Shown piece by piece: positions 14,152-37,571 of a stretch of 64,000 nucleotides of DNA; position 1 is the first letter of the stretch, and each line of letters begins with the position of its first letter. The stretch covers positions 192,001 to 256,000 of the forward strand of contig CAWKHF010000006.1 of NCBI GenBank assembly GCA_963849325.1, in the 5' to 3' direction. Origin of the DNA: an uncultured Planctomycetota bacterium (lineage in GTDB: Bacteria > Planctomycetota > Planctomycetia > Gemmatales > Gemmataceae). Under the pieces are notes generated by a model. That model did no database searches and was not told the origin of the DNA. It was given only the letters and a program-made list of their open reading frames with translations. A program made the position numbers and the translations under genes.

Positions 14152-16833
14152 ATGACGACTCCTCCCCCCGGCGGTCCTTCGGACGGCCGAGCCGAGCCGC
14201 CCAACGCGGCCGGAACCTTCACGCGCCGTCTGCTGCGGCCAGCTCAGGTCATCATCGTCAGCAGCGTGATGTTCACCTTCATCAGCTACTGGCGCACCGC
14301 CGCCGTCGTCCTCTGCGACCTGGCCAGCACGTCCTACTACATCGGCGGCATCGTCGAGCAGTCCATCGGCTCGGCCGCCCCGTGGTTCATCCTCGGCGTC
14401 ATGTTCTTCAGCTACGCCGTCCGCTCGGTCTACATCGAGAGCTGCACCCTGTTCGTCCGCGGCGGCGTCTACCGCGTCGTCCGCGAAGCGCTGGGCAAGT
14501 TCATGGCCAAGCTCGCCGTGTCCGCCCTCATGTTCGACTACATCCTGACCGGGCCGATCAGCGCCGTCTCCGGCGGGCAGTACATCATCGGCCTGGTCCT
14601 CGAAATCGTGTCGCGCTGGTTCGGCATGACCATCGACCCCGACGCGCGCGACTTCGCCAAGCGGCTCGGCTCGGTCCTCATCGCCACCCTCGCCACCCTC
14701 TACTTCTTCCGCAAGAACATCATCGGCATCCACGAATCCAGCGAAAAAGCGCTGAAAATCATGATCATCACCACCGTCATGGGCGTGGTGATGCTGACGT
14801 GGTGCGGCGTGACGCTGGCCGTGCATGGCGCCGCCCACTCCAAGGACGGCACGCCCAACACCGTCAGCCCGACGCCGGACTTCCACTCCAAGCTCAACCC
14901 GACCACCAAGGAGATGGAAGACCCGACGGGGTTCTTGAAGCACACGAGGGCGGCGCAGGCGCTGCGCGACGTCAGCGGCAAACCCCCGACCGACTGGCTG
15001 GGCCTGATCGGCCTGTTCGGCATCTTCATCGCCTTCGGCCACTCGATCCTGGCCATGAGCGGCGAGGAGACGCTGGCCCAGGTTTACCGCGAAGTCGAGT
15101 CGCCGAAGCTGAAGAACTTCAAGAAGGCCGCCTTCATCGTCTTCCTCTACAGCCTGGTGTTGACCGGCGGCATCAGCTTCCTGGCCGTGCTGCTCATCCC
15201 CGCCGACGTGCGCATGCAGGACTACTCCGACAACCTCATCGGCGGCCTGGCGATGAACGTCATCGGCCCGTTGTGGGCGCAACTGCTGCTCAACGGCTTC
15301 GTGGTCGTGGTCGGCTTCGCTGATCCTGGCCGGCGCCGTCAACACGGCCATCATCGGCTCCAACGGCGTGCTCAACCGCGTCGCCGAGGACGGCGTCATG
15401 CCGGAGTGGTTCCTCAAGCCGCACCCGCGCTACGGCACGACCTACCGCATCCTCTGGCTCATCGTCGGCTTGCAGCTGTTCACCATCTGGGCCAGCTTCG
15501 GCGACGTGCTGCTGCTGGGCGAGGCTTACGCCTTCGGCGTCGTCTGGAGCTTCGTCTTCCAGGCGCTGTCGATGGTGGTGCTGCGCTTCGCCGATCCGAG
15601 GCCGCGCGAGGCCAAGGTGCCGCTCAACGTCCGCGTTGGCCGCTACGAGGTGCCGGTCGGCCTGATCGTCATCCTGATCATTCTCCTGGTGTCGGCGGTG
15701 TGCAACCTGCTGACCAAGGAGGTGGCCACCATCGGCGGCCTGATCTTCACGGCCATTTTCTTCACCCTGTTCCACGTCTCCGAGCGCTATCACGAGAAGC
15801 GCCGCCTCGGCAAACAGCACGAGCACATCGAGCAGTTCAACCAGGAGACGACCGGCGAGGTGACGGCCGGCAGTCTCGGCCTGACCAAGACGTATCGCAA
15901 GCTGGTGTCGATCCGCTCGCCGCACAACCTGTTCATGCTGGAAAAAGCGCTGGCCGAGACCGACCCGGAGACGACCAGCATCGTGGTCATGACGGCCAAG
16001 CTGATGCCGCTGGGCGGCTCCGAGGACGAGCAGCCCGACCTGGACGCCTACGATCAGCAGCTGATGACGGCCGTGGTGCAGCTGGCCGAGAAGGCCGGCA
16101 AGCAGGTCAAGCCGCTCATCGTGCCGACCAACAATCCGCATCCACGCCGTGCTCAAGACCGCCAAGGACTTGCAGGCCCACGAGCTGATCCTCGGCGCCT
16201 CCAACCGTTACACGGCCGACGAGCAGATGGAGCAGATCGCCTTTTACTGGATCAACCTGCACGGCGGCAACCCGGCGCCGCTGACGGTGCGCATCCTCAG
16301 CCGCGAGCGCGACATCTACCTCGACCTGGCCGGCGGCAATCGCATTCCCAAGATCAGCGAGCGCAAGGCGCGGTCGGTGGCCGAGCTGCGCGCCGCCGGC
16401 GTCGGCGTCGATCGCGTGCTGCTCATCCACGACGGCAGCCCGGCCAACAGCGACCTGTTCCAGGGCGTCTTGACCATGCTCGACGCCGCAGGTGGTGCTG
16501 GGCGTCGTGCCGGTGGTGCCGCCCGGCTCGGAGCCGCTCAACGGCCACGGCGTCGTCCATCAGGACGAGGAACGCGCCCGCCAGCTCGGCCGCGAACTGC
16601 AGGTGATCGAGCTGCCGGTGCCCGACGGCCCGGCCATCGTCGAGCGCGCCAGCAAGGACCAGTACGATCTCGTCATCCTGCCGCTGTCCGACGAGGCGCC
16701 GAACAATCCCCTGGGCGCGCTCGACGCCCGCGCCAGCTACATCCTCCGACACGCCCACTGCCGGGTGTTCCTGGCGGCCCACCCGGTCATCCCGCAGGAA
16801 GTCGTCGATAAAACGCCCAGCCGCGCTCCGTAG
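14152..16833 (+). CDS. APC-superfamily transporter (YdaO/KimA-like) with C-terminal USP-like domains, frameshifts near 15320, 16140 and 16488
   Basis: Multi-TM N-terminal region (DLASTSYY, GGVY.V..E.LG, AMSGEETL), then soluble ELILGAS and YDLVILPL..YILRHAHCRVFL USP-like segments. Confidence 0.85.
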
Positions 16834-17378: not shown

Positions 17379-19474
17379 ATGCGAATGCGGCGATGGTCCT
17401 TGGTTGTCCTCAGCGCGGCGCTCTTGGGCGTCGCCTCGCTGCGGGCCGCGGAGACGGCGGCGCCGGCGCCGGAGCAAAAGCGACAGGCCGAGGCGCGGAT
17501 GCGCCGCGACCTCACCTTCCTGGCCTCCGACGAATGCGAGGGTCGCGGACCGGGCACCAAGGGCATCGACAAGGCCGCCGACTACATCGCCGCCGAGTTC
17601 AAAAGGGCCGGACTCCAGCCCGGCGGCGAGGACGGCAGCTATTTCCAGCCGTTCACCCTCAACGCCAACGTCCTCGACAAGCCGGCCCACCTCACGCTCA
17701 AGGGGCCACAAGGACAGGAGATCGAACTGCGGCAGGGCGTCCACTTCTGGCCGATGGGCCTGGGCGGAAGCGGCGGCGACCGAGGGCCGGCCGTCTTCGC
17801 CGGCTACGGCATCACCAGCACCAAGGCGAACTACGACGATTACGAAGGGATCGATGTCGCCGACAAAATCGTCGTCCTGCTGCGCGAGCGCCGAGTTCGG
17901 CCGACAAGGACCGGGCCCGCGAGCTGATGAACGGCGCCCCGTTCACTCGCAAGATCGCCAACGCCGAGAAGCATCATGCGGCGGGCGTCCTGATCGTCAA
18001 CGACGCCGACGCCGCCCACGACGGCGACGATCTGCTCGACTTCAACTACACCGCCTTCGGCCGCAGCACGGCCAAGGTCCCGGTTTGCCACGTCCGTCGC
18101 CGTGTGCTGGAGAGGATGCTGCCCGGCGGCGCCGACGCGCTGACGGCCGTGGAGAAGGACATCAACCGCGAACGGAAGCCGCACAGCCGAGAGCTGACCG
18201 GCTGGACGATCGGCGTGGACGTGCGTTTGCATCGCGGCAAGATCGACGTCAAGAACGTGGTCGGCGTCCTCGACGGCTCCGGGCCGCTGGCCGATGAAAC
18301 GATCGTGGTCGGCGCCCATTACGATCATCTCGGCTACGGCGGCGTCAGCAGCCTGGCCGGCCTGAAGAAAATGGCCATCCACCACGGCGCCGACGACAAC
18401 GCCTCCGGCACGACGACGATGCTGGAGCTGGCCCGTCGCTTCGCGGCCCTGCCCAAGCGGCAAGGACGGCGTCTGGTGTTTCTCGCCTTCAGCGGAGAGG
18501 AATTAGGGCTGTTCGGCTCGGCCTATTACTGCAAGCATCCGCTGTATCCGCTCAAGGACACGGCCGCCATGTTCAACCTCGACATGGTTGGCCGGCTGCG
18601 GACGGACAAGGTCAGCGGCAAACCCAAGGTGCTCACCGAGGGCAGCGGCACCGCCAAGCCCTTCCGCGAACTGCTCGACGACCTGGCCCGCAAGTACGAC
18701 TTCAAAATGGTCAACAAGCCGAGCGGCATGGGACCGAGCGATCACGCCTCGTTCTGCGGCCAGGACGTGCCGGTGCTGTTCTTGTGGACCGATTACCACG
18801 ACGATTATCACCGCCCCAGCGATACGGCGGACAAGATCAACATCGCGGGCATGCGGCGCATCGCCGATTTGAGCCAGGATGCCATCGCCACGCTGACGCA
18901 CATGGATCGGCCGGCGTACATCAAGGTCAAGACCGCATCGGCCCGGCCCTCCAATGGACCGCGCCTGGGCATCATGCCCGGCGACGGCGGCGGCAAGGGC
19001 GTCCGCATCGAGGAGGCGGTCGCCGACGAGCCGGCCGCCAAGGCCGGATTGAAGAAGGACGACCTCATCGTCTCCCTCGCCGGCAAGCCGGTGCGCAGCC
19101 TGCAAGACCTGCTGGCCATCCTCAAGAATCAGAAGGCCGGCGACACCATCGAGGTCGGCATCGTCCGCGATGACCGGCCGATGACGGTCTCGGTGAAGCT
19201 GGAAAGCCCCTACGCCAACATGCCGCGCCTGGGCATTCGTCCGAGCTACAGCGACGAGGGCGAGGGCGTGCTGCTGGAGGGCGTGACCGACGATCTGCCG
19301 GCCGCCCGAGCGGGACTGAAGAAGGAGGACCGGATCGTGCGCATCGCCGGCAAGCCGGTCAAGGATCTCGAAGACTACATGGAGATCCTGGGCGGCCAGA
19401 AGAAGGGCAGCACAATCGAGGTCGGTATTATCCGCGATGGGAAGACGATGACGGTGCGGGTGAAGTTGGAATAA
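17379..19474 (+). CDS. Secreted M28 peptidase with PA and two PDZ domains, frameshift near 17890
   Basis: LASDECEGRG, VFAGYGI, GAHYDHLG, GADDNASG, FSGEELGL, NLDMVGR, SDHASF, DYHRPSD, two RLGI PDZ repeats. Confidence 0.92.
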
Positions 19475-19563: not shown

Positions 19564-20444
19564 TTACTTGCCCTGTCCGAACCAGCGTCCCATCAATCCC
19601 TCTTTGCGGGAGGGGATGGCGGGCGTTGGGGCCGGCGCGGCCTGCCCGCCTCCGGGAGCGGCGCCGCGGCGTGTGCTGACGTCTCTGCAGCTTGTCCTTG
19701 AGGTCTGCGAGCCGAACCGAGGAGACGGCGCCATTGTTGCGTTCCAGACGCTCCAGATCGCGGCTGACCTCGTTGCGCAGCCGCTGCAAGTCGTTGCGTT
19801 GCCGGGCCATCTCGGCGCGTTCGCGGGCCATGCTGATCTCCATCTCGCGCATCTGATCCATGACCGCCTGCTCGTCCTCCTGCAGCTGTCGGCGTTCGCG
19901 TTCCAGCTCCTCGCTGAGGGCCAGCAGCTCTTCCTCGCACGGGGCGACGCCCTGGTGCGGCGCGGCGCGGCCGCCTGCGGGCCGGCGGCCTCGGCCTGTT
20001 CGAGAGCGGTCTGCATCTCTTGCAGCTGCGTGATGCAGCTGACGGATCAATTCGTTTTTCTCTTCCAGGACCGCGTTGTATTCGCGGATCTGCTGTTCGA
20101 GGTCGGGCTGAAGCTGCTGGGCGGCCTCCTGCAAGGCCTGCTCCAGTTCGGCACAGAGGGTGGCGCAGCTGGGCATTCTCCAGACGCAGCTCTTGCATGG
20201 GGTCCACCTCCGCCATGCCGTCGGCCCGGTCGCGTCGGGCATCGGCGCGGACGGCGGCGTCCTCGGCCAACCGTTCCGGTTCCTCGAAAGACCCCTGGGC
20301 GTCGTCCCCGGCGGCGTGTAAATGCAACGGGCCGGCCGCGGCTGGTCGGCCGGGGAGACCGCCGTTGGGTCCGCCACGGTGCGGCTCCGGGAGGGGGAGA
20401 GGTCTGACCATGTGCCCTGTTCTCCGCTCGGGTTCGGCTGCCAT
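19564..20444 (-). CDS. Coiled-coil hypothetical protein, multiple frameshifts, start uncertain
   Basis: ELRLENAQLR, ELEQALQE, EEELLALSEELERERRQLQEDE, MARERAEMARQRNDLQRL in alternating frames; ends KEGLMGRWFGQGK. Confidence 0.65.
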
Positions 20445-20585
20445 CGCGGCCGTCCTCGTCCCGGCCGCGTCGGGACCACGGGCGCGGTCCCGCGCAACTA
20501 TAGCTCGCAAATCGCTGCCCGGGCGCCGATTCCTGCGCCGCCACTGCCATCGAACCGTCACTTTGATTACATCTTCGTCAACTTC

Positions 20586-20614
20586 TTGACTCCGCTTTCA
20601 TCTTTCCTCATACT
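20586..20614 (+). promoter_or_regulatory. Promoter of Met/Gly-rich gene 1
   Basis: TTGACT-N17-CATACT. Confidence 0.6.
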
Positions 20615-20888
20615 TACCAATGGTGCCTCGCACCCCGCCCGCGCGTGGCCCCCACGCTACACCAAACCAGCCCCCCGGCGGCCCCCGGGCATCGCCCATC
20701 AGGCCCGTTGTCCAACCGAGAACACGCGGACTCCGCTCCGCTGTCAAGCCCTTGTCACTCCATCCGGCCGCTCCGCGGACGTCGCCAAGCTGCCGGTCGC
20801 TGTTTCGTTCCGCGCCTTGAGCGTTGCGAGCGCGGCCATCGAGGCGCCGCCGCTCGCCAACCCGGTTTCCTCCTTCTCCGAGGGTCGC

Positions 20889-21394
20889 ATGCATTCCACT
20901 CGTTCGTTGAAAGTCGCTTACGTCGTGGCACTGGGGTCTCTGGTCCTCCTGCTGTCGAAGCCCCGTCCCGTCGAGGCCCAGCGCGCGGGTCGCGCCCATG
21001 CTCCAAACCGTCGATCGCATGATGATGCCGTCCATGATGAACGCTGCGCATGATGCTCATGGGAGGCAGCATGGGCGGCATGATGGGCATGATGGGCGGC
21101 ATGATGGGCATGCGTGGCGGCATGATGGGCATGCGTGGCGGCATGATGGGCGGCATGATGGGCGGCATGATGGGCGGCATGATGGGCGGCATGGGCATGC
21201 GCGGCGGCATGATGGGCGGCATGGGCATGCGCGGCGGCATGATGGGCGGCATGGGCATGCGCGGCGGCATGATGGGCATGGGCGGCATGGGCGGCATGAT
21301 GGGTGGCATGATGATGGGCGGCATGGGCATGGGCGGCATGATGGGCTTCGCCGGCAAAGGCATGGGCGGCTTTAACGGTCGCAAAGCTCTCTAA
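20889..21394 (+). CDS. Secreted Met/Gly-rich low-complexity protein 1, frameshifts near 20990 and 21045
   Basis: MHSTRSLKVAYVVALGSLVLLLSKPRPVEA-QR, then MLQTVDRMMMPSMM, an M/G tract and GFAGKGMGGFNGRKAL. Confidence 0.8.
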
Positions 21395-21541
21395 AACGTC
21401 GCGCCATCCTTGAGGATTCTGCTCCTCAAGCCGCTTGCGACTCGGCGGTGCAGCGTCCCACGCGAAGCCGCAAGCGGTCTCCGGGGCGAGGGTGCGCCTC
21501 TCACACTTTCGTTAATAATTCTTAAGGTTGCTGTCTCCTTC

Positions 21542-21570
21542 TTGACAGTGCTTTCCCACTTTTTCATACT
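21542..21570 (+). promoter_or_regulatory. Promoter of Met/Gly-rich gene 2
   Basis: TTGACA-N17-CATACT. Confidence 0.65.
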
Positions 21571-21656
21571 TGCATTGTAGCTTGACTCGTTAACCGCATC
21601 GAGCGGCGACAGGCTGTCGTCTCCATGCTCTCCTTCTTCCTCTTCCGAGGGTCGTC

Positions 21657-22169
21657 ATGTTCTCCTGTACCCGCCTGCTGAAAGTCGTCTACCTCGTGGC
21701 TCTGGGGGCCGTGGTGCTCCTGCTGTCCCAACCCAAGCCCGCGCACGCGCAGCGCTCCCGCGTCGCGCCGATGCAACAGCAGGTCAATCAGATGATGATG
21801 CCCTCCATGATGCAGGCGCGCATGATGCTCCAGATGGGCGGCATGGGCGGCATGGGGATGATGGGCATGGGCGGAATGATGAGCATGGGCGGCGGCATGA
21901 TGGGCATGCGGGGCGGCATGATGGGCATGAGCGGCGGCATGATGGGCATGATGGGTGGCATGATGGGCGGCATGGGCATGCGTGGCGGCATGATGGGCGG
22001 CATGTCCATGATGGGCGGCATGTCCATGGGTCGAGGCGGCATGATGGGCATGGGCGGCATGGGCGGCATGATGGGCGGCATGATGATGGGCGGCATGGGC
22101 ATGGGCGGCGGCATGATGGGCTTCGCCGGCAAGGGCATGGGCGGATTCAACGGCAAGAAGGCCCTCTGA
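21657..22169 (+). CDS. Secreted Met/Gly-rich low-complexity protein 2
   Basis: Intact 170-aa ORF; signal peptide ending PAHA-Q, M/G tract, GFAGKGMGGFNGKKAL. Confidence 0.88.
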   Translation: MFSCTRLLKVVYLVALGAVVLLLSQPKPAHAQRSRVAPMQQQVNQMMMPSMMQARMMLQMGGMGGMGMMGMGGMMSMGGGMMGMRGGMMGMSGGMMGMMGGMMGGMGMRGGMMGGMSMMGGMSMGRGGMMGMGGMGGMMGGMMMGGMGMGGGMMGFAGKGMGGFNGKKAL

Positions 22170-22198
22170 GCGCTCGCCTCTTTTTCGCGAACTCCCAA

Positions 22199-22232
22199 CC
22201 GCGCCGGCGTTCCTCCGCCGGCGCGGTTTTTC
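22199..22232 (+). terminator. Rho-independent terminator
   Basis: CCGCGCCGGCG-TTCCTC-CGCCGGCGCGG followed by a T run. Confidence 0.8.
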
Positions 22233-22300
22233 GTTTGGCTCTCTCTTCGCGTCGCCGGATGGCGCGTCTCCTGCTCGCCCCGTTTCGGCCCACCAAGTCC

Positions 22301-22329
22301 TTGACTAAACCTTTCCTTTTCTTCATACT
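22301..22329 (+). promoter_or_regulatory. Promoter of Met/Gly-rich gene 3
   Basis: TTGACT-N17-CATACT. Confidence 0.65.
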
Positions 22330-22433
22330 GGAGCGAAGGCGTAAGCGCTTCCGCTGGCGCCACGGAGTGTACCTCGAGGATGCCTCCGTGCGGGAGGCGT
22401 CGAAGCTCCCTTCCTCGATTTGTGGAGAGCGCC

Positions 22434-22979
22434 ATGAGTGGCTCCATTCGTTGGTTTCAGGTTGCCTATGTGCTGGGTCTATCCGCCGTCGTCCTGTTGC
22501 TGTCGCAGCCTCGTCCGGCCACGGCGCAGCGATCCATGGTCGCGCCGATGCAACAGCAGGTCAATCAGATGATGATGCCCTCCTTCCAGCAAGCTCAGAT
22601 GATGCTCCAGATGGGCGGCATGGGTGGCATGGGCATGATGGGCATGGGCGGCATGATGAGCATGGGCGGCGGCATGATGGGCATGGGCATGGGCGGCATG
22701 TCCATGATGGGCGGCATGAGCATGGGCGGCGGCATGATGGGCATGCGCGGCGGCATGTCCATGATGGGCGGCATGGGCATGGGCGGCATGTCCATGATGG
22801 GCGGCATGATGATGGGCGGCATGGGCATGGGTGGCGGCATGATGGGCATGCGCGGCATGTCCATGATGGGCGGCATGTCCATGATGGGCATGAGCGGCAT
22901 GGGCATGGGCATGGGCGGCGGCATGATGGGCTTCGCCGGCAAGGGCATGGGCGGATTCAACGGCAAGAAAGCCCTCTGA
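22434..22979 (+). CDS. Secreted Met/Gly-rich low-complexity protein 3
   Basis: MSGSIRWFQVAYVLGLSAVVLLLSQPRPATA-QRSMVAPMQQQVNQ ... GFAGKGMGGFNGKKAL. Confidence 0.88.
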   Translation: MSGSIRWFQVAYVLGLSAVVLLLSQPRPATAQRSMVAPMQQQVNQMMMPSFQQAQMMLQMGGMGGMGMMGMGGMMSMGGGMMGMGMGGMSMMGGMSMGGGMMGMRGGMSMMGGMGMGGMSMMGGMMMGGMGMGGGMMGMRGMSMMGGMSMMGMSGMGMGMGGGMMGFAGKGMGGFNGKKAL

Positions 22980-23008
22980 ATTGTCCGCCATTTCCTCTCG
23001 TTCGCGCA

Positions 23009-23041
23009 CGCGCCGGCCTCTTCGCCGGCGCGATCTCTTTT
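23009..23041 (+). terminator. Probable terminator hairpin
   Basis: CGCGCCGGC-CTCTTC-GCCGGCGCG followed by ATCTCTTTT; a similar hairpin follows gene 4 at 24016-24051. Confidence 0.65.
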
Positions 23042-23108
23042 CCTCCTCGCCGGCTCGCCGTCGTTTTCGCCGCCGTCATAAATTTCCAGAATTACGCGAT
23101 CTTTCTTC

Positions 23109-23136
23109 TTGACGTATCCTTTCTTTTCGTTAAGAT
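23109..23136 (+). promoter_or_regulatory. Promoter of Met/Gly-rich gene 4
   Basis: TTGACG-N16-TAAGAT; context shared with 24120-24147. Confidence 0.6.
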
Positions 23137-23483
23137 TGGTGGAAAGGAGGGAACGGCCTGGCGAGCGTCGGGCCGAACATTCTCTCGGCACCTTGACGAA
23201 AGGACTCACCCCAACCATCATCCCGAAACCTCTTCGTTGTGGTTGCCTCTCGGGTTTCCCGACCCGGCCATCCTGGCCCTTCCGTGACAACTGCCTGTCA
23301 TCCCGCTGGCCGAAAGAAACAAGGCCACGGAAAGTTTGACCTGAAACGGTGTTGCTCCTCGACCACGCCCCGGGCGGATGGTGTTCCTCCGCGGCGCGGC
23401 CATCAACGCGGATGGCGTGCGACGTATCGCGCGGGTCGCCAATGCGTTTGACGTCGAAGGCCCTTTTCTTCCTGGAGATCTTC

Positions 23484-23984
23484 ATGCTTGACTCCGTTCG
23501 TTGTCTGCGTGTTAGCTACGTCCTGATGTTGGCGACGGCCGTCCTTGTGCTGTCGCGGCCGGGAGACTCTCGCGGCCAACGGTCGCAGATCGCGCCCATG
23601 CTGCAAACCGTCAATGGCCAGATGTCGCAGTCCATGTCGCAAACCCGCATGATGCTCATGGCAGGCGGCTCGTCCCTGTCGGCGGGCATGGGCGGCGGCG
23701 GCATGAGCGGCGGCATGGGCATGAGTGGCGGCATGAGCGGCGGCATGGGCATGAGCGGCGGCATGATGGGCGGCATGGGCATGAGCGGCGGCATGATGGG
23801 CATGAGCAGCATGGGCATGGGCGGCATGAGCGGCATGGGCATGGGCGGCATGGGCGGCATGATGGGCATGAGCAGCATGGGCCGAGGCGGCATGGGCATG
23901 GGCGGCGGCATGGGCATGGGCGGCGGCATGATGGGCTTCGCCGGCAAGGGCATGGGCGGTTTCAACGGCCGGAAAGCTCTCTGA
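23484..23984 (+). CDS. Secreted Met/Gly/Ser-rich low-complexity protein 4
   Basis: MLDSVRCLRVSYVLMLATAVLVLSRPGDSRG-QRSQIAPMLQTVN ... GFAGKGMGGFNGRKAL. Confidence 0.88.
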   Translation: MLDSVRCLRVSYVLMLATAVLVLSRPGDSRGQRSQIAPMLQTVNGQMSQSMSQTRMMLMAGGSSLSAGMGGGGMSGGMGMSGGMSGGMGMSGGMMGGMGMSGGMMGMSSMGMGGMSGMGMGGMGGMMGMSSMGRGGMGMGGGMGMGGGMMGFAGKGMGGFNGRKAL

Positions 23985-24119
23985 GCCGGCCCACGATTTC
24001 CGCTTTTTCCTCGGACGCGCCGGCCCTTGTTCGCCGGCGCGATCTCCTTTTCTTCCCCGCTCCCGTCCGGCGCCTTTCGCCGGTCGCCGTCCCTTTCCAG
24101 AATTACGCGATCTTTTTTC

Positions 24120-24147
24120 TTGACATGTCGTTCCCTTCCGGTAACAT
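24120..24147 (+). promoter_or_regulatory. Promoter of Met/Gly-rich gene 5
   Basis: TTGACA-N16-TAACAT. Confidence 0.6.
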
Positions 24148-24437
24148 CAATGCAGACGAGGAACCGGCTTGGCGAGCGTCGCCGAGTCGTTCTCTCGGCA
24201 CCTTGACGAAAGAACGCAACGCGACTGTCATCCCGAGACCTCTCTGTTTGGTTTTCCGGCTGGTTTTCTCGATCTGGCTCCTCTCGCTCCTCCACGACAA
24301 CGACCTGTTTTCCCGCCGAGCGAAATAAGCAGGGCGAACCGCGCGGTCCCTCCCGGTTGGTGCCGCGCGGCGGATCGCGGCGGTCCCGGAATGCGTTCGA
24401 ACGTCGAAACGCCCTTCCTTCTCTTCATGGGGATTTC

Positions 24438-24916
24438 ATGCTTGGTTCCGTCCGTTGTCTGCGCCTTGGCTACACCCTGATGTTGGTGGCGACCGTCCTC
24501 CTGCTGTCGCGGCCGGGAACGTCCCGGGCCAGCGCTCCCGGATCGCGCCCATGCTCCAGCAGGTCACGCAGCAATTCTGGCAACCGCAAGTCATGCAAAC
24601 GCGCATGATGCTCATGAGGGGCGGCATGAGCGGCGGCATGAGCGGCGGCATGAGCGGCGGCATGATGGGCGGCATGATGGGCGGCGGCATGATGGGCCGC
24701 GGCGGCATGATGGGCGGCATGATGGGCGGCGGCATGATGGGCATGAGCAGCATGGGCCGCGGCGGCATGATGGGCGGCATGGGTCGCGGCGGCATGGGCA
24801 TGGGCGGCATGGGCGGCATGATGGGCGGCGGCATGGGTGGCGGCATGGGCATGGGCGGCATGATGGGCTTCGCCGGCAAGGGCATGGGCGGATTCAACGG
24901 CAAGAAAGCCCTCTGA
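24438..24916 (+). CDS. Secreted Met/Gly-rich low-complexity protein 5, frameshift near 24515-24525
   Basis: MLGSVRCLRLGYTLMLVATVLLLSRPG / GQRSRIAPMLQQVTQ ... GFAGKGMGGFNGKKAL. Confidence 0.83.
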
Positions 24917-24925
24917 GCCGCCCGC

Positions 24926-24980
24926 GTAGCCGCTGGCGGCTTAGCGTTCGCCGTTGCCCGCTAAGCCGCCAGCGGTTTTT
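24926..24980. repeat. REP-like palindrome, family F (GTAGCCGC...GCTAAGCCGC)
   Basis: CCGCTGGCGGCTTAGCG..CGCTAAGCCGCCAGCGG; related copies at 55062-55103, 21428-21479 and 27715-27740. Confidence 0.75.
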
Positions 24981-25058
24981 GGCCTCGCCTTGACACTCCG
25001 CGAGCGTTGTGCGACCTTCTTCGGCCGGCCTGTCGTCCGAGCCAAGGAGGGCCATGCC

Positions 25059-27618
25059 ATGGACGGTCGATCCGCTTCGGCGTCTGCCCCGCCTCCGTTT
25101 TCCGCACTCCTCTCCGCTGAATTTTCCTCTTCCTCTTTGCCGGCGCCGAAACGTCGTCGCTGGCATTTGTCGCTGGTCTTGCCGGCCTACAACGAGGAAG
25201 CCGGCATCCGTCAGGCCGTCGCCGAGGCGTGCGACGGCGCTGGCGGAGCTGACCGCCGACTACGAAATCCTGGTCGTGGACGACGGCAGCCGCGACGACA
25301 CCGCCGCCATCGTGGCCGAGATGGCGGCGACGCGGCCGCGCCTGCGGCTGCTGCGTCACGTGTCCAATCGCGGTTACGGCGCCGCCCTGCGTACCGGCTT
25401 CGCCGCGGCGCGCTTCGAGCGCGTGGCCTTCACCGACGCCGACTGTCAGTTTCACCTCGCCGACCTCGGCCGTCTGCTGTCGTTGTCCGAGCGTTTTCCG
25501 CTGGTGGTTGGCTGGCGGCAGGCGCGGCAGGATCCGTGGCGGCGCCGCTTTCTGTCGCGCGGCTACAACCTGCTGACACGGACCTTGCTGGGCACGCGCG
25601 TGCGCGACTGCGACTGCGCCCTGAAGGTGTTTCACCGCGACGTGCTCGCCGCACTGCTGCCGGAGACGAACACGTTTTTCGTCAACGCCGAGATGCTGGC
25701 CAAGGCACGTCAGCTGGGCCTGGACGTGGCCGAGGTCGGCGTGCGTCATCGGCCGCGCCTGCGCGGAGCGAGCAAGGTGTCGTTGGGCGAGGTGCCGCGT
25801 ACGCTGGCGACGCTGGTGCCGTTCTGGTGGTCGCGGGTGCTGTTCGCGGGGGATGAGCGATTTCTCCCCTCTCCCCCGCTTCGGGGGAGAGGGGTAGGGG
25901 GTGAGGGGGCAGCGTCTCCCCCTCACCCCCTACCCCTCTCCCCCGAAGCGGGGGAGAGGGGAGAAAGAAGACGGAGCGGACGCTCGCTGGCACTTCTCGT
26001 GCTCCTCGCCGCGACCCTGTTCTTTCTCCGTCTGCGCGCCCCGCTGCTGGAACCGCAGGAGCCGCGCTACGCCGAGATCCCCCGGCAGATGTTGCAAGAG
26101 GGACGTTTGCTGGTGCCGGTGCTGCACGGCCAGCCGTACCTCGACAAGCCGCCGCTGCTGTACTGGCTGGTGATGGGTAGTTACGGCCTGTTCGGCGTCC
26201 ACGACTGGTCGGCCCGCCTGGTGCCGGGCCTGGCCGGCGTCCTGACGGTGCTGCTGACCTACGGCTGGGGCCGCCGCGCCGTCGGCGAGCGCGCCGGATT
26301 GTGCGGGGCGCTGGTGCTGTGTCTGTCGGCCGGCTTCGTTTATCGCCAGCGCATGCTCAACATGGACAGCCTGCTGTGCCTGTGGGTGACGGCCGCCCTG
26401 GCGTCGGCCCACCGGGCGCTGACGACCGGGCCGCTCCTGCGGCGGCGCTGGGGGCTGACGGCGGCCGTCGCCTGCGGCCTGGGACTGCTGACCAAGGGTC
26501 CGGTGGCCCTCGTCCTGATCGGGACGCCGCTGCTGCTCTATCGGTGTCTGGAGCCGCGTTGCGCCCGCGTGTCCTTCCGCGCCGCGGCCCTGTTCGTGCT
26601 GCTGGCCGTGGCCGTGGCGGCGCCGTGGTACGTCGCCGTTATGGTGCGGGAGCCGGACTTCGCGTATTCCTTCTTCTGGCGACACCACGTCGAACGGTTC
26701 CTGACACCGTTCGACCACGAGAAGCCGGCCTGGTTTTACCTGCCCGGCCTGCTGGCCGGTATGCTGCCGTGGACGCTGCTGTTGCCGGGGTTTGTACGTT
26801 ATCTTGCCCGGCGTTCGCCGCGCGCCGCTCGGCGTCGTCCGGCCGCGCTCGGATTCTTTCTGCTGTCGGCCCTGTGGTGTGTGCTGTTCTTCTCGGCCTC
26901 CGGCTGTAAGCGACCCGCGTACATTCTGCCGGCGATGCCGCCGCTGGCGCTGGCGCTGGGCTGCTACCTGAACGTCCTGGTTCCGCATGGCCGCCGTCTG
27001 TCCGGCGCCGGCTTGCTGCTGTTGTGGCGCTGGCGCTCGGCGGCGGCGTCGGCGGGCGACGATGCTCGTGCTGGTGCTGGCCCTGGGGATCGTCGCCGCT
27101 GGCCGGCCGGCAAGCAGATGTCTGCGTCCTGGCTCTGGCCTTCGTGCTGGAGGTCGCTGGCCGCTTGCGGCTTGGCGCTAGGCTGTACGCGGCGCATCTC
27201 GTGGGGCGTCTGCGCCGCCGTCACCTTCGTCGTGCTCGGTCTGGGGGTCTACCACTTGCAGCCCGCCTACAATCGCCAGTTCGCGCTGCGCGGCCACCTG
27301 CGCGGCGACACCGACCTCGCCGACGGGACGCGCCTGCCGGTCGTTTGCTATCCGCAGCGCTGGGATTCGGTCAGCTTCTACCTGCCCCGCGCCGACGTGC
27401 GCGTGTACACGCTGGAGCAGCGGCGGCAGATGCTGGCGGACCTGCGCTCGCGGCCGCGGACGCTGTTGCTGGTGAAGTCCGGCAAGGTACTCGATGATCT
27501 GCTGCGCGAGTTGTCCGACTCGATCGAGTTCGTGGCGCACGGCCGGCCGGGAGTCGTCACCGCCGGCTGGGTGCGTCCACGCCGCGAACCGTCCGAGGCC
27601 GCCTACGCACGGCGCTGA
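25059..27618 (+). CDS. GT2 (polyprenyl-phosphate glycosyltransferase-like) fused to an ArnT/PMT-family membrane glycosyltransferase, frameshifts near 25230 and probably 27050-27150
   Basis: LSLVLPAYNEE, VVDDGSRD, NRGYGAAL, FTDAD; then EPRYAEIPRQM, YLDKPPLLYW, LLTKGPV, APWY, KRPAYILP. Confidence 0.88.
25865..25962. repeat. REP-like palindrome inserted in frame in the glycosyltransferase linker
   Basis: CCCTCTCCCCCGCTTCGGGGGAGAGGGGTAGGGGGTGAGGGGG..CCCCCTCACCCCCTACCCCTCTCCCCCGAAGCGGGGGAGAGGGG. Confidence 0.88.
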
Positions 27619-27790: not shown

Positions 27791-28994
27791 ATGACTCTTC
27801 CGCACCGTCGCGCCGTCCTCGCCGGCGGACTGGCCGGCCTAGCTTGCTCCGCACTGTCCGGCGCCGAGCCGCGCGCCGCCAAGGACGCCCTCAAGATCAC
27901 CAAGCTGGAAACCTTCCTCGTCAAACCGCGCTGGCTGTTCCTCAAAATCCACACCAACGCCGGCATCACCGGCCTGGGCGAGCCCATCCTCGAAGGCCGC
28001 GCCCGCACCGTCGCCGAGGCCGTCAAGGAGATCGAGCCGTACCTGATCGGCAAGGATCCGCGCAGGTCGTCCACCACTGGCAGGCTATCTATCGCCACGC
28101 TTTCTATCGCGGCGGGCCCATCCTCACCAGCGCCCTGAGCGGCATCGACATCGCCCTGTGGGACATCAAGGGCAAGGCGCTGGGCGTGCCGGTCTACGAG
28201 TTGCTCGGCGGACCCACCCGGCAGCGCGTGCGCGTTTACGCCCATGCTCGCATCTCCCGAGAAGCTGAAGGAGCTGAAGGACAAGGGCTTCACCGCCTTC
28301 AAGACCGGCCCGGCCAAGCGACGGCCGGCGCGCTACGTCGAGACGCCGGCCGAGGTGCGCCACGTCGCCGAGCGCGTTCGCCGAGCTGCGCAAGGCCGGC
28401 GGCGACGACGTGGACATCGCCATCGACTTCCACGGAGCCATCAGTCCCGCCACGGCCAAGCTGCTCATCAAGGCGCTGGAGCCATATCAACCCATGTTCA
28501 TCGAGGAGCCGTGCCAGGCGCAGAACCACGACATCATGGCCGAGATCGCGCGCGGCACGCACCTGCCCATCGCCACCGGCGAGCGCGTCTTCACCAAATG
28601 GGGCTTCCGCGAAGTGCTGGAGAAGAAGGCGGCGACGATCTTGCAGCCGGACCTGTGCCACGCCGGCGGCATCACGGAATGTCGTCTCATCGCCGGCATG
28701 GCCGAGGCGTATTACGCCGCCATCGCGCCGCACTGTCCGCTCGGTCCCATCGCCCTGGCCGCCGGCGTGCAGCTGGCCGCGTCCATTCCCAACTTCGTCG
28801 CCCAGGAACAGGTCACGCTCGGCGACGGCTATCTCAAACGGCCGTTCGCGCTGCGCCAGGGCTATCTCGATCTGCCGACGGGACCGGGGCTGGGCATCGA
28901 GCTGGACGAGCACGCCCTGGCCGACAAGATCGATCACGATTGGAAGAACCGCGAGGAGTACGACGCCGACGATGGTTCCGTGGTCGATTGGTGA
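27791..28994 (+). CDS. dgoD: Galactonate dehydratase-like enolase-superfamily enzyme with a Tat-type leader, three frameshifts
   Basis: [89 protein letters not shown]. Confidence 0.88.
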
Positions 28995-29769: not shown

Positions 29770-32700
29770 ATGTTTCGCAGCCGGTGCGCGGGTTGGTTCC
29801 GTTCGTGCCTGATTGTGGGGATGGCATGTCTCGTGGTGCAAACGCCCCTATCCCGAATGCTCCGGGCCGAACCGCCGAAACCAGCGCTGACACCGGAACA
29901 GCAGCAGCAATTGGAGAAGGCGAAGCGTCTCCAAGCGGAGGTAGTCGCACTCTCCCGGCAGGGCCGATACCGTGAGGCGGTTGATCGGGCCCGCCAAGTT
30001 GCCGAGATCTGCAAGGAGTTGCTGGGCGAGAAGCATCCTCTCTACGCCACCTGCCTGAACAACCTGGCCCAGCTGTACGACTCCCAGGGCGACTACGCCA
30101 AGGCCGAGCCGTTGTTTCGCCAAGCGCTGCAAATCCGCAAGCAGGCGCTGGGAGAAAAGCACCCCGACTACGCCACCAGCCTGAACAACCTGGCCGGCCT
30201 GTATCAGTCCCAGGGAGACTACGCCAAGGCCGAGCCGCTGTACCGACAGGCCGTGGAGATCCTCAAGCAGGCGCTGGGCGAGAAGCACGTCGCCTACGCT
30301 ACCAGCCTGAACAACCTGGCCGAACTGTACCGCTGCCAGGGCGACTACGCCAAAGCCGAGCCGCTGTGCCAACAGGCTGCGGAGATCCTCAAGCAGGCGC
30401 TGGGCGCAGAAGCACCCCTCCTACGCTACCAGCCTGAACAACCTGGGTCTGCTGTACCAATTCCAGGGCGACTACGCCAAGGCCGAGCCGATGCATCGAC
30501 AGGCGACGGAGATCCTCAAGCAGGCGCTGGGCGCAAAGCACCCCTCCTACGCCAGCAGCCTGAACAACCTGGCCGGGCTGTACCAATTCCAGGGCGACTA
30601 CGCCAAGGCCGAACCTCTGTACCGACAGGCGCGGGAGATCATCAAGCAGGCGCTGGGCGACAAGCACCCCGACTATGCCAGCTGCCTGAACAACCTGGCC
30701 CTGCTGTACAAGTCTCAGGGCGATTACGCCAAGGCCGAGCCGATGTACCGACAGGCGACGGAGATCAAGAAGCAAGTGCTCGGCGCGAAGCACCCCCTCT
30801 ACGCCACCAGCCTGACCGGCCTGGCCCAGCTGTACCAGTCCCAGGGCGACTACGCCAAGGCCGAACCTCTGTACCGACAGGCGCTGCAAATCCGCAAGCA
30901 GGCGCTGGGAGAAAAGCATCCCGACTACGCCACCAGTCTGAATGAACTGGCCTTGCTGCACCACTCCCTGAGGGACTACGCCAAGGCCGAGCCGCTGTAC
31001 CAACAGGCGTTGGCCATCCGCAAGCAGGTGCTGGGCGCGAAGCACCCCGACTACGCCGCCAGCCTGAACAACCTGGCCATGCTGTACTCTTCTCAGGGCG
31101 ACTACGCCAAGGCCGAGCCGCTGTGCCGACAGGCGCTGGCGATCAACAAGCAAGTACTAGGCGAAAAGCATCCTGGCTACGCCACTGACCTGAACAACCT
31201 GGCGGAGTTGTGCCGCTGCCAGGGCGACTATGCCAAGGCCGAGCCGCTGTTTCGCCAGGCGCTGGAGATCCTCAAGCCGGCGCTGGGCGAGCAGCACCCC
31301 TCCTACGCTACCAGCCTGAACAACCTGGCCGGGCTGTACCAATTCCAGGGCGATTACGCCAGGGCCGAATCGCAGTGCCGGAAAGCTCTGACCATCACTC
31401 GCGGCAACCTCGAACTGGCCGCCACCGTGCAGTCCGAGCGGCAGCAACTGGACGTGCTCGAGAAGGTGCGCTACACGCTCGAACGTCTACCTGTCGGCGG
31501 CCATCGCGGCCCGGCAATCCGCCGAGAGGATCTATGAGCCGATCTTGACCTGGAAAGGAGCCGTCAGCCTGCGGCAACAAAACCAGCGGCTGGCGCGGCG
31601 TCATCCCGAACTGGCGGACGACTTCGCTACCCTGGATCGCGTCGCCTCCCGTCTGGCCGCCCTGGCCCTGGCCGTGCCCGTGCCCGACCCCAAACAGCAG
31701 CAAGCACGTCACGAACAAATCCAGAAACTCACCAAGGAGAAGGAAGACCTGGAGAGCCAACTGGCTCGCCGCAGCGCCGACTTCCGTACCGAAAAGGAGC
31801 TGCGGCGGCTGATGCCGGCCCAGCTGCAAGCCGCCCTCCCCGAAGGAACCGCCCTCCTCGACTTCCTCCAATACAGCCATTGCACGCCCTCTACCCAGAA
31901 GAAAGGGCAATGGCAGGTAGAGCGCCGACTGGCGGCCTTCGTGGTCCGCCGCGACGCGCTGGTGCGCGTGGACCTCGGCCCGATCCAGCCCATTCAGGAG
32001 GCGCTGCAAAGCTGGCGGCTGGCCTTGCAGCGACGCTTCCGCACCGAAGGCGACAACGCCCTCGGCGCCGCCGTGCGTCAGCTCATCTGGCAGCCGATGG
32101 AGAAGCACCTGGGCGGGGCCAAGATGGTGCTGGTCTCTCCCGATGGCGAACTGGCTCGCGTCCCCTTCGCCGCCCTGCCCGGCAGCAAGAAGGACTCCTA
32201 TCTGCTGGAAGAACTCGCCCTGGCCGTCGTGCCCGTGCCGCAACTGTTGCCGCAACTGCTGGCGTCGCCTGCCGGCGAGAGTAAGTCCGAGCCGTCGCTG
32301 TTGCTGGTCGGCAACGTCCGCTATGACGCCGCAGCCTCTGGAGAGGCCGTCGCGGACAGCCGCTCCGCTCCGCGCGCTGGCACGCTCTTAAGCTGGAAGC
32401 CGCTGGAGAATACCGGCGACGAGGTGGCGGCCATCAAGGACCGCTTCCAACGTCGCTTCCGCCGCGGCATCGTCACCGACCTGCGCGAAGACGAGGCCAC
32501 CGAGGCCGAGGTACGCCGGCAGATGCCCAAGCATCGCTATCTGCACTTCGCCACGCACGGCTTCTTCGCTCCCAAGGAAGTGCATTCCGCCCTGGCGGCG
32601 GTGTCGCGCGGCAAGGACGGCGACGCCGACAACCTGTTCGGCGGTCGCAAGGGCGTGGTGGGGTTCCATCCGGGTTTGCTGTCGGGGTTGGTGCTGGCGG

Positions 32701-33140
32701 GGGCCAATCGGCCGGCGGAGGTGGGCCGAGACGACGGCATTCTGACGGCGTTGGAAGTGGAGGCGTTGGACCTGGCCGGCGTGGAGTTGGCGGTGCTCTC
32801 GGCGTGCGAGACGGGTCTGGGCGAGCAAGCCGGCGGTGAGGGACTGCTCGGATTGCAACGTGCCTTCCAGGTGGCGGGGGCGCGGAGCGTGGCGGCCGGT
32901 CTGTGGCAGGTGGACGACAAGGCCACGCGCGACCTGATGATGCGCTTCTACGAGAACCTGTGGAAGAAGAAGATGCCGAAGCTGGAGGCGCTGCGCCAGG
33001 CCCAATTGTGGATGCTCAAGGAAGGCATCAGCCGCGGCATGATCGACGTGAAGGTGCCCAAGGAACGGCTGGGCAAAGAAGGCGGCCGCCTACCGCCGTA
33101 CTACTGGGCCGCCTTCGTCCTCTCCGGCGACTGGAGATAG
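29770..33140 (+). CDS. Secreted TPR-repeat CHAT-domain (caspase-like) protein, frameshifts near 30408 and 31485
   Basis: About 11 42-aa repeats LGEKHPDYATSLNNLAxLY; CHAT motifs VSPDGEL..VPFAAL, LHFATHG, VLSACETGLG, PYYWAAFVLSGDW. Confidence 0.93.
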
Positions 33141-37400: not shown

Positions 37401-37571
37401 CGAGCGCTGGACGACCTGCTGGCGCACTACAAGGCGCACGCCGAGGACGCCAAGAAGCTGATCGCCGTCGGCGAGTCGAAGGCCGATCCGACGCTGGACG
37501 CGGCCACGCTGGCGGCGTGGACGATGCTGGCCAATGAGCTGATGAATCTGGACGAGGTGTTGAACAAGTAA
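34362..37571 (+). CDS. Planctomycete cytochrome c / DUF1549 / LamG-like / DUF1553 protein, many frameshifts
   Basis: [86 protein letters not shown]. Confidence 0.9.

What the first reader, a model, noticed from the sequence alone, without database searches (positions are those of the whole stretch)
20889..24916. Array of five secreted Met/Gly-rich proteins with an invariant C-terminal motif
Seen: five tandem paralogs of about 160-180 aa share one layout. A Sec-type signal peptide with predicted cleavage before Q is followed by a conserved QRxx(V/I)APM(Q/L)Q(Q/T)V segment and a long tract of almost only Met and Gly (some Arg/Ser, essentially no acidic residues). All end in MMGFAGKGMGGFNG(K/R)KAL. 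The tracts differ in repeat grammar while the tail is fixed, which argues for selection on the tail as a sorting, processing or assembly signal. I do not recognise the family. Inference: an extracytoplasmic Met-based ROS sink or Cu(I)/Ag(I) chelator, a sulfur store, a coacervate or fibre/adhesive protein, or modified-peptide precursors. The adjacent GT2-ArnT fusion and the nearby PDZ-bearing M28 peptidase are candidate partners, unproven.
Basis: partly seen in the sequence, partly recalled or inferred. Interest (0 to 1): 0.8.

Follow-up and report, generated by a model that had tools for sequence, protein, structure and literature searches.

The report
Secreted glycine/methionine floppy proteins of Gemmataceae
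Five neighbouring genes encode small exported proteins that are about three-quarters glycine and methionine; they belong to an undescribed, almost genus-specific family of soil planctomycetes whose constant features are glycine plus a greasy residue and fixed ends, so it looks more like a sticky, flexible cell-envelope material than a methionine-specific metal or oxidant trap.

Summary
The array is real. Five same-strand paralogs lie at 20889-24916. Each has a Sec-type signal peptide, a QRxx(V/I)APM block, a Gly/Met tract (mature copies 2-4: Met 27-38%, Gly 35-38%, no Asp/Glu/His/Cys) and an identical tail.

As assembled, copies 1 and 5 are frame-broken by three small indels. The GT2-PMT gene next door is broken too, where four relatives have it whole, so assembly error is the likelier cause.

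No Pfam, NCBIfam, PDB or Rfam match was found. A profile search of 1.84 billion representatives gave 65 hits. The family was found in 10 of 10 other genomes of the genus, 3 of 240 other Gemmataceae genomes, and 0 of 16 outside the family.

Across members Gly stays at 21-40% while Met runs from 3.7% to 39%. Met-poor relatives carry Phe/Leu/Ala instead, so Met chemistry is not family-defining. AlphaFold2 leaves tract and tail unstructured (pLDDT 44-52).

In 7 genus genomes a copy or array sits directly upstream of an ArnC/ArnT-like GT2-PMT fusion. That fusion occurs in 242 of 251 Gemmataceae genomes, so it does not depend on the family. The M28-PDZ neighbour is not conserved.

Best reading (about 0.4): an exported, cationic, disordered "sticker-spacer" envelope protein, oxidation-sensitive in this genus.

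The scan had earlier noted Gly/Met tracts in other planctomycete envelope proteins, but not this family.

The parts
20586..20614 (+). sigma-70-like promoter match upstream of copy 1 (TTGACT-17-CATACT)
   Evidence: 7 promoter-like sites in 20400-25300 against 1.0 +/- 1.0 in shuffles; 6 of the 7 lie on the + strand
20889..21397 (+). copy 1. Signal peptide in frame 20889, QR-VAPMLQTV block in frame 20890, Gly/Met tract and tail in frame 20891. Two frame breaks (about 20985-20988 and 21043-21049).
21542..21570 (+). promoter-like site upstream of copy 2 (TTGACA-17-CATACT)
21657..22169 (+). copy 2, intact, 170 aa. Signal peptide residues 1-31, N-block 32-62, Gly/Met tract, tail.
22197..22228 (+). 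terminator-like hairpin (13 pairs) with T run after copy 2
22434..22979 (+). copy 3, intact, 181 aa from the likely start MSGSIRW. The open frame starts at 22380. A promoter-like site lies at 22301-22329.
23009..23032 (+). terminator-like hairpin after copy 3
23484..23984 (+). copy 4, intact, 166 aa, Ser-richer tract (GMSGG). Promoter-like sites lie at 23109-23136 and 23193-23221.
24016..24041 (+). terminator-like hairpin after copy 4
24438..24916 (+). copy 5. The signal peptide (MLGSVRCLRLGY...) is in one frame, the QRSRIAPM block, tract and tail in another. One base is missing at about 24525-24530. A promoter-like site lies at 24120-24147.
25056..27618 (+). GT2 (ArnC/DPM1-like) fused to PMT_2 (ArnT/PMT-like GT-C). 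It is frame-broken at about 25225 in this assembly and carries a 106-nt perfect palindrome in the linker (25861-25966).
   Evidence: The orthologous fusion lies directly downstream of family copies in 7 genus genomes.

Best explanation
Each gene is its own transcription unit and encodes a small exported protein (about 8-17 kDa mature). After signal-peptidase cleavage before Gln, it consists of three parts: a weakly helical Gln/Met-rich N-block, a long intrinsically disordered tract of glycine 'spacers' and hydrophobic 'stickers', and a fixed Lys-bearing tail, GGFAGKG(M/F)GGFNGKK(A/P)L. The stickers are Met in this genus and Phe/Leu/Ala/Ile in other members.

I propose that the family works by weak, multivalent hydrophobic contacts of a flexible cationic chain in the cell envelope. 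These contacts could be with itself (a gel, coat or adhesive layer) or with hydrophobic or anionic envelope components (non-native proteins, LPS). The conserved N-block and tail would serve as docking or assembly ends. Paralogs would differ in tract length and grammar.

In this genus the Met stickers would make the material oxidation-sensitive, and incidentally oxidant-consuming.

Shown: the export signal, composition, predicted disorder, purifying selection on the tail, distribution and gene neighbourhoods. Inferred: localisation, self- or partner-association, and any redox switching.
For: AlphaFold2 with a 24-row alignment gives a helix only for the signal peptide (residues 4-24, pLDDT 83-95) and a weak one for the N-block (39-62, pLDDT about 50-57); the tract and tail have no secondary structure at pLDDT 44-52. 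The ESM Atlas model of homolog P0011 has pLDDT 0.37.

Gly is constant and the sticker is interchangeable. Among 29 members Met ranges 3.7-39.1% and Gly 20.7-40%. Some members have F/G, L/G or A/G tracts but keep the same signal peptide, N-block and tail. There are 0-2 acidic residues per mature protein and net charge is positive.

The tail is kept through synonymous codon change in 35 copies. Each copy has its own promoter-like site, and 4 of 5 have a terminator-like hairpin. The family is multi-copy: 8 tail-bearing copies in this genome and up to 11-12 matches in relatives.

Other exported proteins of this genome also carry Gly/Met tracts, at C12:316152-319370 and C1:404470-405207. Neighbours are envelope functions: the ArnC/ArnT-like GT2-PMT fusion in 7 genomes, a second PMT_2 gene in 2, a DrrA-like ABC ATPase in 4, and an HAE1 RND pair in 2.

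Published analogies, read as passages. The flexible hydrophobic (GGM)4M tails of GroEL are proposed there to bind partly folded clients (PMC11978752). Sis1 has adjacent G/F and G/M regions (PMC5754090). The Met-rich low-complexity domain of Pbp1 phase-separates; its droplets melt on Met oxidation, and Met-to-Tyr variants resist H2O2 (PMC8394241).
Against: There is no experimental or expression evidence of any kind. Disorder predictions say nothing about assembly. The tool that could test self-association was not available.

The GT2-PMT adjacency may be inherited synteny within one genus: the fusion occurs in 242 of 251 Gemmataceae genomes, most of them without the family, and in the three other-genus holders it lies on another contig. 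The ABC and RND neighbours would fit a self-protection reading as well.

A 30-39% Met content is metabolically costly. It may have been selected for Met chemistry in this genus even if the wider family does not need it.
Confidence: 0.4

Rival explanations
1. Sacrificial periplasmic methionine sink. The Met residues scavenge HOCl or ROS and are re-reduced by a periplasmic methionine sulfoxide reductase, as for MrpX with YedYZ/MsrPQ.
For: The proteins are exported and Met-dense. MrpX is a precedent (PMC4436054, passages). The genome has 6 Oxidored_molyb (PF00174) genes and one MsrA. Thioredoxin-fold (AhpC/TSA, ResA-like) genes lie near copies in 2 loci, L013 and L026.
Against: Met is not conserved in the family (3.7-39%). 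No msrP/Q, msrA/B or sigma/anti-sigma pair lies next to any of the annotated neighbourhoods: the window plus 15 Pfam-annotated loci. The PF00174 and MsrA genes lie on other contigs. MrpX is 20% Met and 44% charged residues; these proteins have no acidic residues and are about 36% Gly. A sink would not need an invariant tail.
Confidence: 0.15
2. Secreted cationic glycine-rich antimicrobial or competition proteins. The neighbouring envelope modifiers and pumps (ArnT-like lipid glycosylation, ABC, RND) would provide self-protection.
For: The proteins are small, secreted, cationic (+4 to +9) and Gly-rich. Signal and ends are conserved and the middle is variable. They occur as tandem, lineage-specific expansions. 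Neighbours are an ArnC/ArnT-like fusion, a DrrA-like ABC ATPase and HAE1 RND pumps.
Against: No immunity-like small gene, no C39-peptidase exporter and no double-glycine leader were seen. The ABC genes are convergent rather than co-oriented, and no permease was seen beside them. The GT2-PMT fusion is near-universal in the family Gemmataceae. All neighbour classes are common genes.
Confidence: 0.12
3. Acceptor substrates of the neighbouring GT2-PMT module, which makes a polyprenyl-phosphate sugar and transfers it in the periplasm. The proteins would then be glycoproteins whose tail or N-block is the recognition site. This is compatible with the best explanation.
For: The fusion sits directly downstream on the same strand in 7 genus genomes while the other flank varies. 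A second, PMT_2-only paralog sits divergently about 210 nt from other arrays in 2 genomes. PMT-family enzymes act on exported disordered Ser/Thr-bearing segments (established knowledge of protein O-mannosyltransferases).
Against: No Ser or Thr is invariant in the mature part; the invariant columns are Q, G, M, F, A, K, N and L. The best NCBIfam similarity of the PMT part is to lipid-A ArnT, below cutoff. The fusion exists without the family in most Gemmataceae. Terminator-like hairpins separate the genes.
Confidence: 0.15
4. Periplasmic Cu(I)/Ag(I) sponge built from Met thioethers, like PcoE/SilE/CusF or Met-rich loops of copper oxidases.
For: Dense MxM and MxxM spacing. One locus class lies downstream of RND pumps.
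Against: There is no His or Cys. Met is not conserved in the family. The RND pumps score as multidrug HAE1 (NF000282 above cutoff), while CusA/CzcA stays below cutoff. No copA, cueO, cusF or pco gene appears in any annotated neighbourhood.
Confidence: 0.05
5. Decaying or artefactual repeats: non-functional low-complexity ORFs or an assembly artefact.
For: 2 of 5 window copies, and 2 of 3 copies on contig C1, are frame-broken as assembled. The repeats are slippage-prone.
Against: Intact homologs exist in many independent assemblies. The tail shows synonymous-only variation. The GT2-PMT gene of the window is broken in the same way although relatives have it whole, and other window genes match only part of their Pfam profile, so the breaks point to assembly quality and not to decay.
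Confidence: 0.03

Closest known systems
MrpX, periplasmic methionine-rich peptide of Azospira suillum (PMC4436054)
   Same: A small protein with a Sec signal, exported, unusually Met-rich.
   Different: MrpX is 20% Met and 44% charged residues and sits in a yedYZ operon under SigF/NrsF. The proteins here are 27-38% Met, about 36% Gly, have no acidic residues, carry a fixed tail, have no msr neighbour, and include Met-poor family members. Sequence homology to MrpX was not tested.
Gly/Met tails and regions of chaperones: GroEL (GGM)4M C-terminus (PMC11978752); Sis1 G/F and G/M regions (PMC5754090)
   Same: The same GGM-type grammar. Both are flexible and hydrophobic, with G/F and G/M as interchangeable variants. 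This gives a plausible mode of action through weak contacts with hydrophobic clients.
   Different: Those are short cytosolic appendages of folded chaperones. Here the tract is the whole exported protein (100 or more residues), cationic, with its own conserved ends and no folded domain.
Methionine-rich low-complexity domain of yeast Pbp1/ataxin-2 (review PMC8394241)
   Same: Met acts as the cohesive sticker of a disordered domain, and Met and aromatic residues are interchangeable as stickers. This suggests oxidation-reversible cohesion.
   Different: Pbp1 is eukaryotic and cytosolic, part of a large RNA-binding protein, and has far lower Met and Gly density. Self-association of the present family is untested.
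Gly-rich tracts of large planctomycete envelope proteins (vWA, secretin-N0/STN family; earlier scan notes e1-2367124 and e1-5021437)
   Same: Exported proteins of the same phylum with 100-140-residue Gly-plus-hydrophobic tracts whose sticker varies by lineage (Met, or Ala/Leu/Phe). A homolog in this genome (C12, about 1223280-1227459) and one in G097 (L074) have GGALGG- or GGFAG-type tracts.
   Different: Those are inserts in proteins of about 1,500 aa with folded domains. The present family is a stand-alone small protein with its own N-block and tail, and no sequence homology outside the low-complexity part was shown.

Membership tests
MrpX-type periplasmic Met-rich scavenger | Small exported protein with a signal peptide | tested here: met
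MrpX-type periplasmic Met-rich scavenger | Composition of about 20% Met with about 44% charged residues | tested here: not met
   (Met 27-38%, Gly 35-38%, D+E 0)
MrpX-type periplasmic Met-rich scavenger | Operon with yedYZ/msrPQ and a SigF/NrsF-type regulator | tested here: not met
   Searches found no such neighbour in the window or in 15 annotated loci. Searches place the PF00174 and MsrA genes on other contigs.
MrpX-type periplasmic Met-rich scavenger | Sequence homology to MrpX | not tested
Periplasmic Cu(I)/Ag(I) Met/His binders (CusF, PcoE/SilE, CopM) | Met with His (or Trp) ligand motifs, and a cop/cus/pco gene context | tested here: not met
   His 0, Trp 0; no copper genes; the RND pumps are of HAE1 type
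C-terminal sorting signals (PEP-CTERM, GlyGly-CTERM, LPXTG) | A motif followed by a hydrophobic helix and a basic cluster at the C-terminus (features recalled, not from a call) | tested here: not met
   The tail GFAGKGMGGFNGKKAL has no hydrophobic helix, and no NCBIfam sorting-domain model hit.
Gly-rich bacteriocins / class II microcins | Double-glycine leader, C39-peptidase ABC exporter and an adjacent immunity gene (features recalled) | tested here: not met
   The leader is a Sec-type signal peptide. The neighbouring ABC proteins are DrrA-like ATPases only.
Chaperone Gly/Met tails (GroEL (GGM)4M, JDP G/M region) | A GGM-type tract appended to a folded chaperone domain in the cytosol | tested here: not met
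   The composition is shared, but there is no folded domain or Pfam hit and a signal peptide is present.
Substrates of PMT-family protein O-glycosyltransferases | Exported disordered segment with conserved Ser/Thr acceptors, and a cognate PMT | tested here: inconclusive
   A PMT_2 neighbour is conserved, but no Ser or Thr is invariant.
Self-associating Met-rich low-complexity domains (Pbp1-like) | Homotypic phase separation or gelation, melted by Met oxidation | not testable with these tools
   Only composition and predicted disorder could be shown.

The most novel reading that the evidence does not exclude
Planctomycetes of this genus export a family of stand-alone 'sticker-spacer' proteins that condense into a redox-tunable hydrogel or coat in the enlarged periplasm or on the cell surface. 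This would be a bacterial, extracytoplasmic counterpart of FG-type and Met-rich cohesive low-complexity phases. The natural Met versus Phe versions would act as oxidation-sensitive and oxidation-resistant variants, with the fixed N-block and Lys-bearing tail as the assembly or anchoring ends.
Probability: 0.15. Interest if true: 0.85.

Novelty: categorically new. Interest (0 to 1): 0.6.

Why it matters
The proteins sit near the extreme of natural composition: about 37% Met plus 37% Gly, with no acidic residues. They are multi-copy and belong to a family with no curated model and no description in the papers searched.

If the proteins act as a cohesive or client-binding disordered material outside the cytoplasm, that would extend low-complexity, condensate-type physics to the bacterial envelope. 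It would also give a natural Met-versus-Phe sticker series for testing oxidation-switchable protein materials.

The family would also bear on the unusual envelope of Gemmataceae and on the sulfur budget of these soil bacteria. For annotation, the practical point is that the Met richness is a lineage trait and not the family's defining feature.

Tried and rejected
**Database searches with no result**
- Pfam and NCBIfam on the five proteins: 0 hits at E up to 1.
- PDB profile search: 0 hits at E up to 1.
- Rfam E-value scan of 20300-25300: 0 hits.
- ESM Atlas does not hold the window protein. Homolog P0011 gave no usable feature hit, and its structure rows were all TM 0.36 or lower.
- The search for related loci in genome contigs: 103 pattern matches, of which only 8 were confirmed and returned.
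- The search of earlier findings by place and by words: nothing.
- Paper searches found no description of such a family. Only open-access text and bioRxiv were searched.

**Reads**
- No RNA holder was listed. All 11 listed runs held small shares, 0.05-0.06.
- Four runs were laid. They gave only short contigs on the Gly/Met tracts, and no piece spans the stretch.
- Two short contigs of run X8 cover the 5' parts of copies 1 and 5, but their gaps were not itemised. The frameshifts therefore stay unverified, and nothing can be said on expression or habitat.

**Copper and methionine-repair links**
- The RND neighbours are multidrug HAE1 type, not CusA.
- No msr gene lies nearby.

**Candidate partners**
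- M28-PDZ as partner: not conserved.
- Phyletic coupling of the family with the GT2-PMT fusion: rejected, because the fusion is near-universal in Gemmataceae.
- Search for a diverged Gly-rich small gene upstream of the fusion in other genera: none seen in 16 loci. L079 is only 983 nt. L074 has a large vWA-type protein there, which was not repeated elsewhere.

**Tree of N-terminal regions**
- 32 rows were used, and one of them (G000abc_8679) is a false pattern match that I did not remove.
- Only 62 columns were kept and many forks are open.
- It supports only three things: within-genome clustering of G006's five copies, and a distinct 'GQFR...PPPP...DSTG' subtype.

Full report
**Observation.** The region 20889-24916 holds five + strand paralogs. 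Each has four parts:
- an N-terminal signal peptide of about 30 residues (basic n-region, hydrophobic core, A/G at -1, then Gln);
- a QRxx(V/I)APM(Q/L)Q(Q/T)V block;
- a tract of almost only Gly and Met with a few Arg and Ser;
- the identical ending MMGFAGKGMGGFNG(K/R)KAL.

Mature copies 2-4 are 27.4-38.0% Met and 35.3-37.8% Gly. They have no Asp, Glu, His, Cys, Trp or Tyr and carry net charge +6 to +9. The Pro/Met/Ile-rich ORFs on the - strand are mirror images of the repeats.

**Frame breaks.** Copy 1 is read in three frames: 2 bases are missing after CAGCG at about 20985-20988, and 1 base is extra at about 21043-21049. Copy 5 lacks one base in CCCGGGCC at about 24525-24530. So 3 of 5 copies are open as assembled.

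The neighbouring GT2-PMT gene is broken in the same way at about 25225, whereas four relatives read MDGRS...LSLV.PAYNE...ALAELT in one frame. Several other window genes match only part of their Pfam profile: Peptidase_S8, AA_permease_2, MR_MLE_C and PSCyt2. The genome is 14 contigs at 84.7% completeness. I therefore take the breaks to be indel errors of the assembly. This is an inference: the public runs found held only short tract-like contigs and could not settle it.

**Is it a gene family?** Yes.
- In 35 tails from this genome and 18 loci of relatives, nearly every codon varies synonymously while the residue is kept. The pattern used to collect them fixes most residues, so only the synonymous spread is informative.
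- All 43 tandem-repeat rows have periods divisible by 3.
- Each copy has a sigma-70-like promoter match on the + strand (7 sites against 1.0 +/- 1.0 in shuffles, 6 of them on +). GC-rich hairpins with T runs follow copies 2, 3 and 4, and a weak one follows copy 5. The genes therefore look monocistronic.
- This genome has eight tail-bearing copies: five here and three on contig C1, two of which are again frame-broken.

**Family and distribution.**
- There is no Pfam, NCBIfam, PDB or Rfam match.
- A word-indexed search gave 34 proteins. None carries more than a 'hypothetical protein' label, and the named ones are from Gemmataceae.
- A profile of 24 members against 1.84 billion representatives gave only 65 hits at E up to 1e-3, 31 of them at up to 1e-10.
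- In whole genomes the profile hits 10 of 10 other genomes of the window's genus and 3 of 240 other Gemmataceae genomes, that is 4 of 90 genera.
- A single-protein search hit 0 of 16 genomes outside the family.

Members share the signal peptide (M.S..R.LKVGY.L.L...AQR), an N-block ending in ..QAQ.ML..AG.P, a Gly-rich tract and the tail GGFAGKG(M/F/L)GGFNGKK(A/P)L.

The key result is that the tract's hydrophobic residue is not fixed. Among 29 members Met is 3.7-39.1% of the mature protein while Gly is 20.7-40%. Met-poor members have GGF, GGL or GGA grammars (for example P0029, P0041, P0052, P0040, P0044). The other-genus members include a GGFAGGLQ repeat protein, a GGFNMGG protein and a Gly/Met tract of more than 330 residues. 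Met richness is thus a lineage trait. The family invariant is glycine plus a hydrophobic sticker, positive charge and conserved ends.

**Structure.** AlphaFold2 with the 24-row alignment gives mean pLDDT 54 and pTM 0.19. There is a confident helix for the signal peptide (4-24) and low-confidence helices for the N-block (39-46 and 48-62). Tract and tail have no secondary structure at pLDDT 44-52. The ESM Atlas model of homolog P0011 has pLDDT 0.37. The complex predictor was unavailable.

**Neighbourhood.** In the window, an M28 peptidase with two PDZ domains (17393-19474) and a - strand coiled-coil-like ORF lie upstream, and a GT2-PMT fusion lies downstream.

*GT2-PMT fusion.* It scores best, below cutoff, to ArnT and ArnC models. 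The orthologous fusion (67-77% identity) lies directly downstream, on the same strand, of one to five family copies in 7 genus genomes: G000, G009, G006, G004, G003, and G008, G001. The opposite flank differs between them. For the other four genus genomes the junction could not be seen: a contig ends there in G005, and only partial hits were found in G002, G007 and G010.

*Other recurrent neighbours.*
- A second, PMT_2-only gene sits divergently about 210 nt from other arrays in G008 and G004.
- A convergent DrrA-like ABC ATPase occurs in 4 genomes, including this genome's C1 locus and another genus.
- An HAE1-type RND pair lies upstream in 2 genomes.

*Limits.* The M28-PDZ gene is not found next to any related locus. 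The fusion is found in 242 of 251 Gemmataceae genomes at E up to 1e-40, with many full-length matches in genera without the family. In the three other-genus holders it lies on another contig. Sixteen upstream regions of the fusion in other genera show no comparable small Gly-rich gene. The adjacency is therefore a conserved trait of this genus, but the enzyme does not need these proteins. No msr or copper gene lies in any neighbourhood, and the genome's six PF00174 genes and its MsrA lie on other contigs.

**Interpretation.** The combination points to a flexible, weakly sticky, cationic polymer acting in the envelope: an export signal, a disordered Gly-spacer and hydrophobic-sticker tract with an interchangeable sticker, no acidic residues, conserved ends, many paralogs with different tract grammar, and envelope-type neighbours. 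It could stick to itself (gel, coat or adhesive) or to hydrophobic or anionic partners.

Published systems give the physics (all read as passages):
- GroEL's flexible hydrophobic (GGM)4M tails, proposed there to bind partly folded clients (PMC11978752).
- The adjacent G/F and G/M regions of Sis1 (PMC5754090).
- The Met-rich low-complexity domain of Pbp1. Its droplets melt on Met oxidation and re-form with Msr enzymes, and Met-to-Tyr variants resist H2O2 (PMC8394241).

By analogy, the Met versions of this genus would be oxidation-sensitive and the Phe versions of other lineages would not. This is inference, and I put it at about 0.4.

The MrpX-type scavenger model (PMC4436054) fits the export and the Met density. 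It does not fit the composition, the gene context, the tail or the Met-poor relatives. The copper-sponge model fits least. A cationic antimicrobial reading and a role as glycosylation substrate remain open.

**Link to earlier scan notes.** A sequence look-up brought up notes on Gly/Met tracts inside large planctomycete envelope proteins (e1-2367124, e1-5021437). I found a homolog of that kind in this genome (C12, fragmented over several frames) with a GGL/GGFAG-type tract. I found another upstream of the fusion in G097 with a GGALGG tract. Two further exported proteins of this genome carry Gly/Met tracts. This agrees with Gly-plus-hydrophobic tracts being a recurrent envelope 'material' in this phylum. 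It does not show homology with the present family.

**Verdict.** The family is undescribed and nearly genus-specific. The Met-centred readings are weakened. The GT2-PMT neighbour is conserved within the genus but not dependent on the family, and the PDZ peptidase is not a partner by synteny.

Noticed in passing
window 25861-25966: A perfect 49-nt inverted repeat with an 8-nt loop (a 106-nt palindrome) lies in frame inside the linker of the GT2-PMT fusion, so both strands encode SPPLRGRGVGGEG / PLPLSPEAGERGE-type peptides. Related sequence occurs at about 92 places in this genome, which suggests a REP-like element family.
   Followed up: partly
window 25056-27618 (break at about 25225): The GT2-PMT gene is frame-broken in this assembly although four relatives have it whole. 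Other window genes match only part of their Pfam profile (S8 peptidase 9402-9809, permease 15368-16606, MR_MLE 28410-28994, PSCyt2/PSD1 34788-37461). Together these point to an indel-rich assembly.
   Followed up: partly
G000 C12:316152-319370 (-) and C1:404470-405207 (-): Two other exported proteins of this genome carry Gly/Met tracts. One has the tract after its signal peptide, ahead of a large domain. The other is lipoprotein-like with a C-terminal GGMGGGMGGG run.
   Followed up: no
G000 C12 about 1223280-1227459 (-); L074 (G097:C7): Homologs of a large (about 1,450 aa) vWA-type planctomycete envelope protein carry a Gly-rich insert: GGALGG in G097, and GGLGG/GGFAG/GGFQG in this genome. In G097 the gene lies just upstream of the GT2-PMT fusion, which was not repeated in 15 other loci.
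   Followed up: partly
G000 C2:967742 onward (+), 350-aa frame: A Met/Cys-rich ORF (MGMPGMG repeats followed by a CxxC-dense tail) resembles the 45%-Met family of earlier scan note e1-4245670.
   Followed up: no
window 30491-33140: A TPR (TPR_12/TPR_10) protein is followed by a CHAT-domain protein, a pairing typical of caspase-like signalling or defence modules.
   Followed up: no
L057 (G097:C2 about 350000-351500, -): A family-like signal peptide and N-block is followed by a Gly/Met tract of more than 330 residues that runs beyond the part inspected. This would be a giant member in another genus.
   Followed up: no
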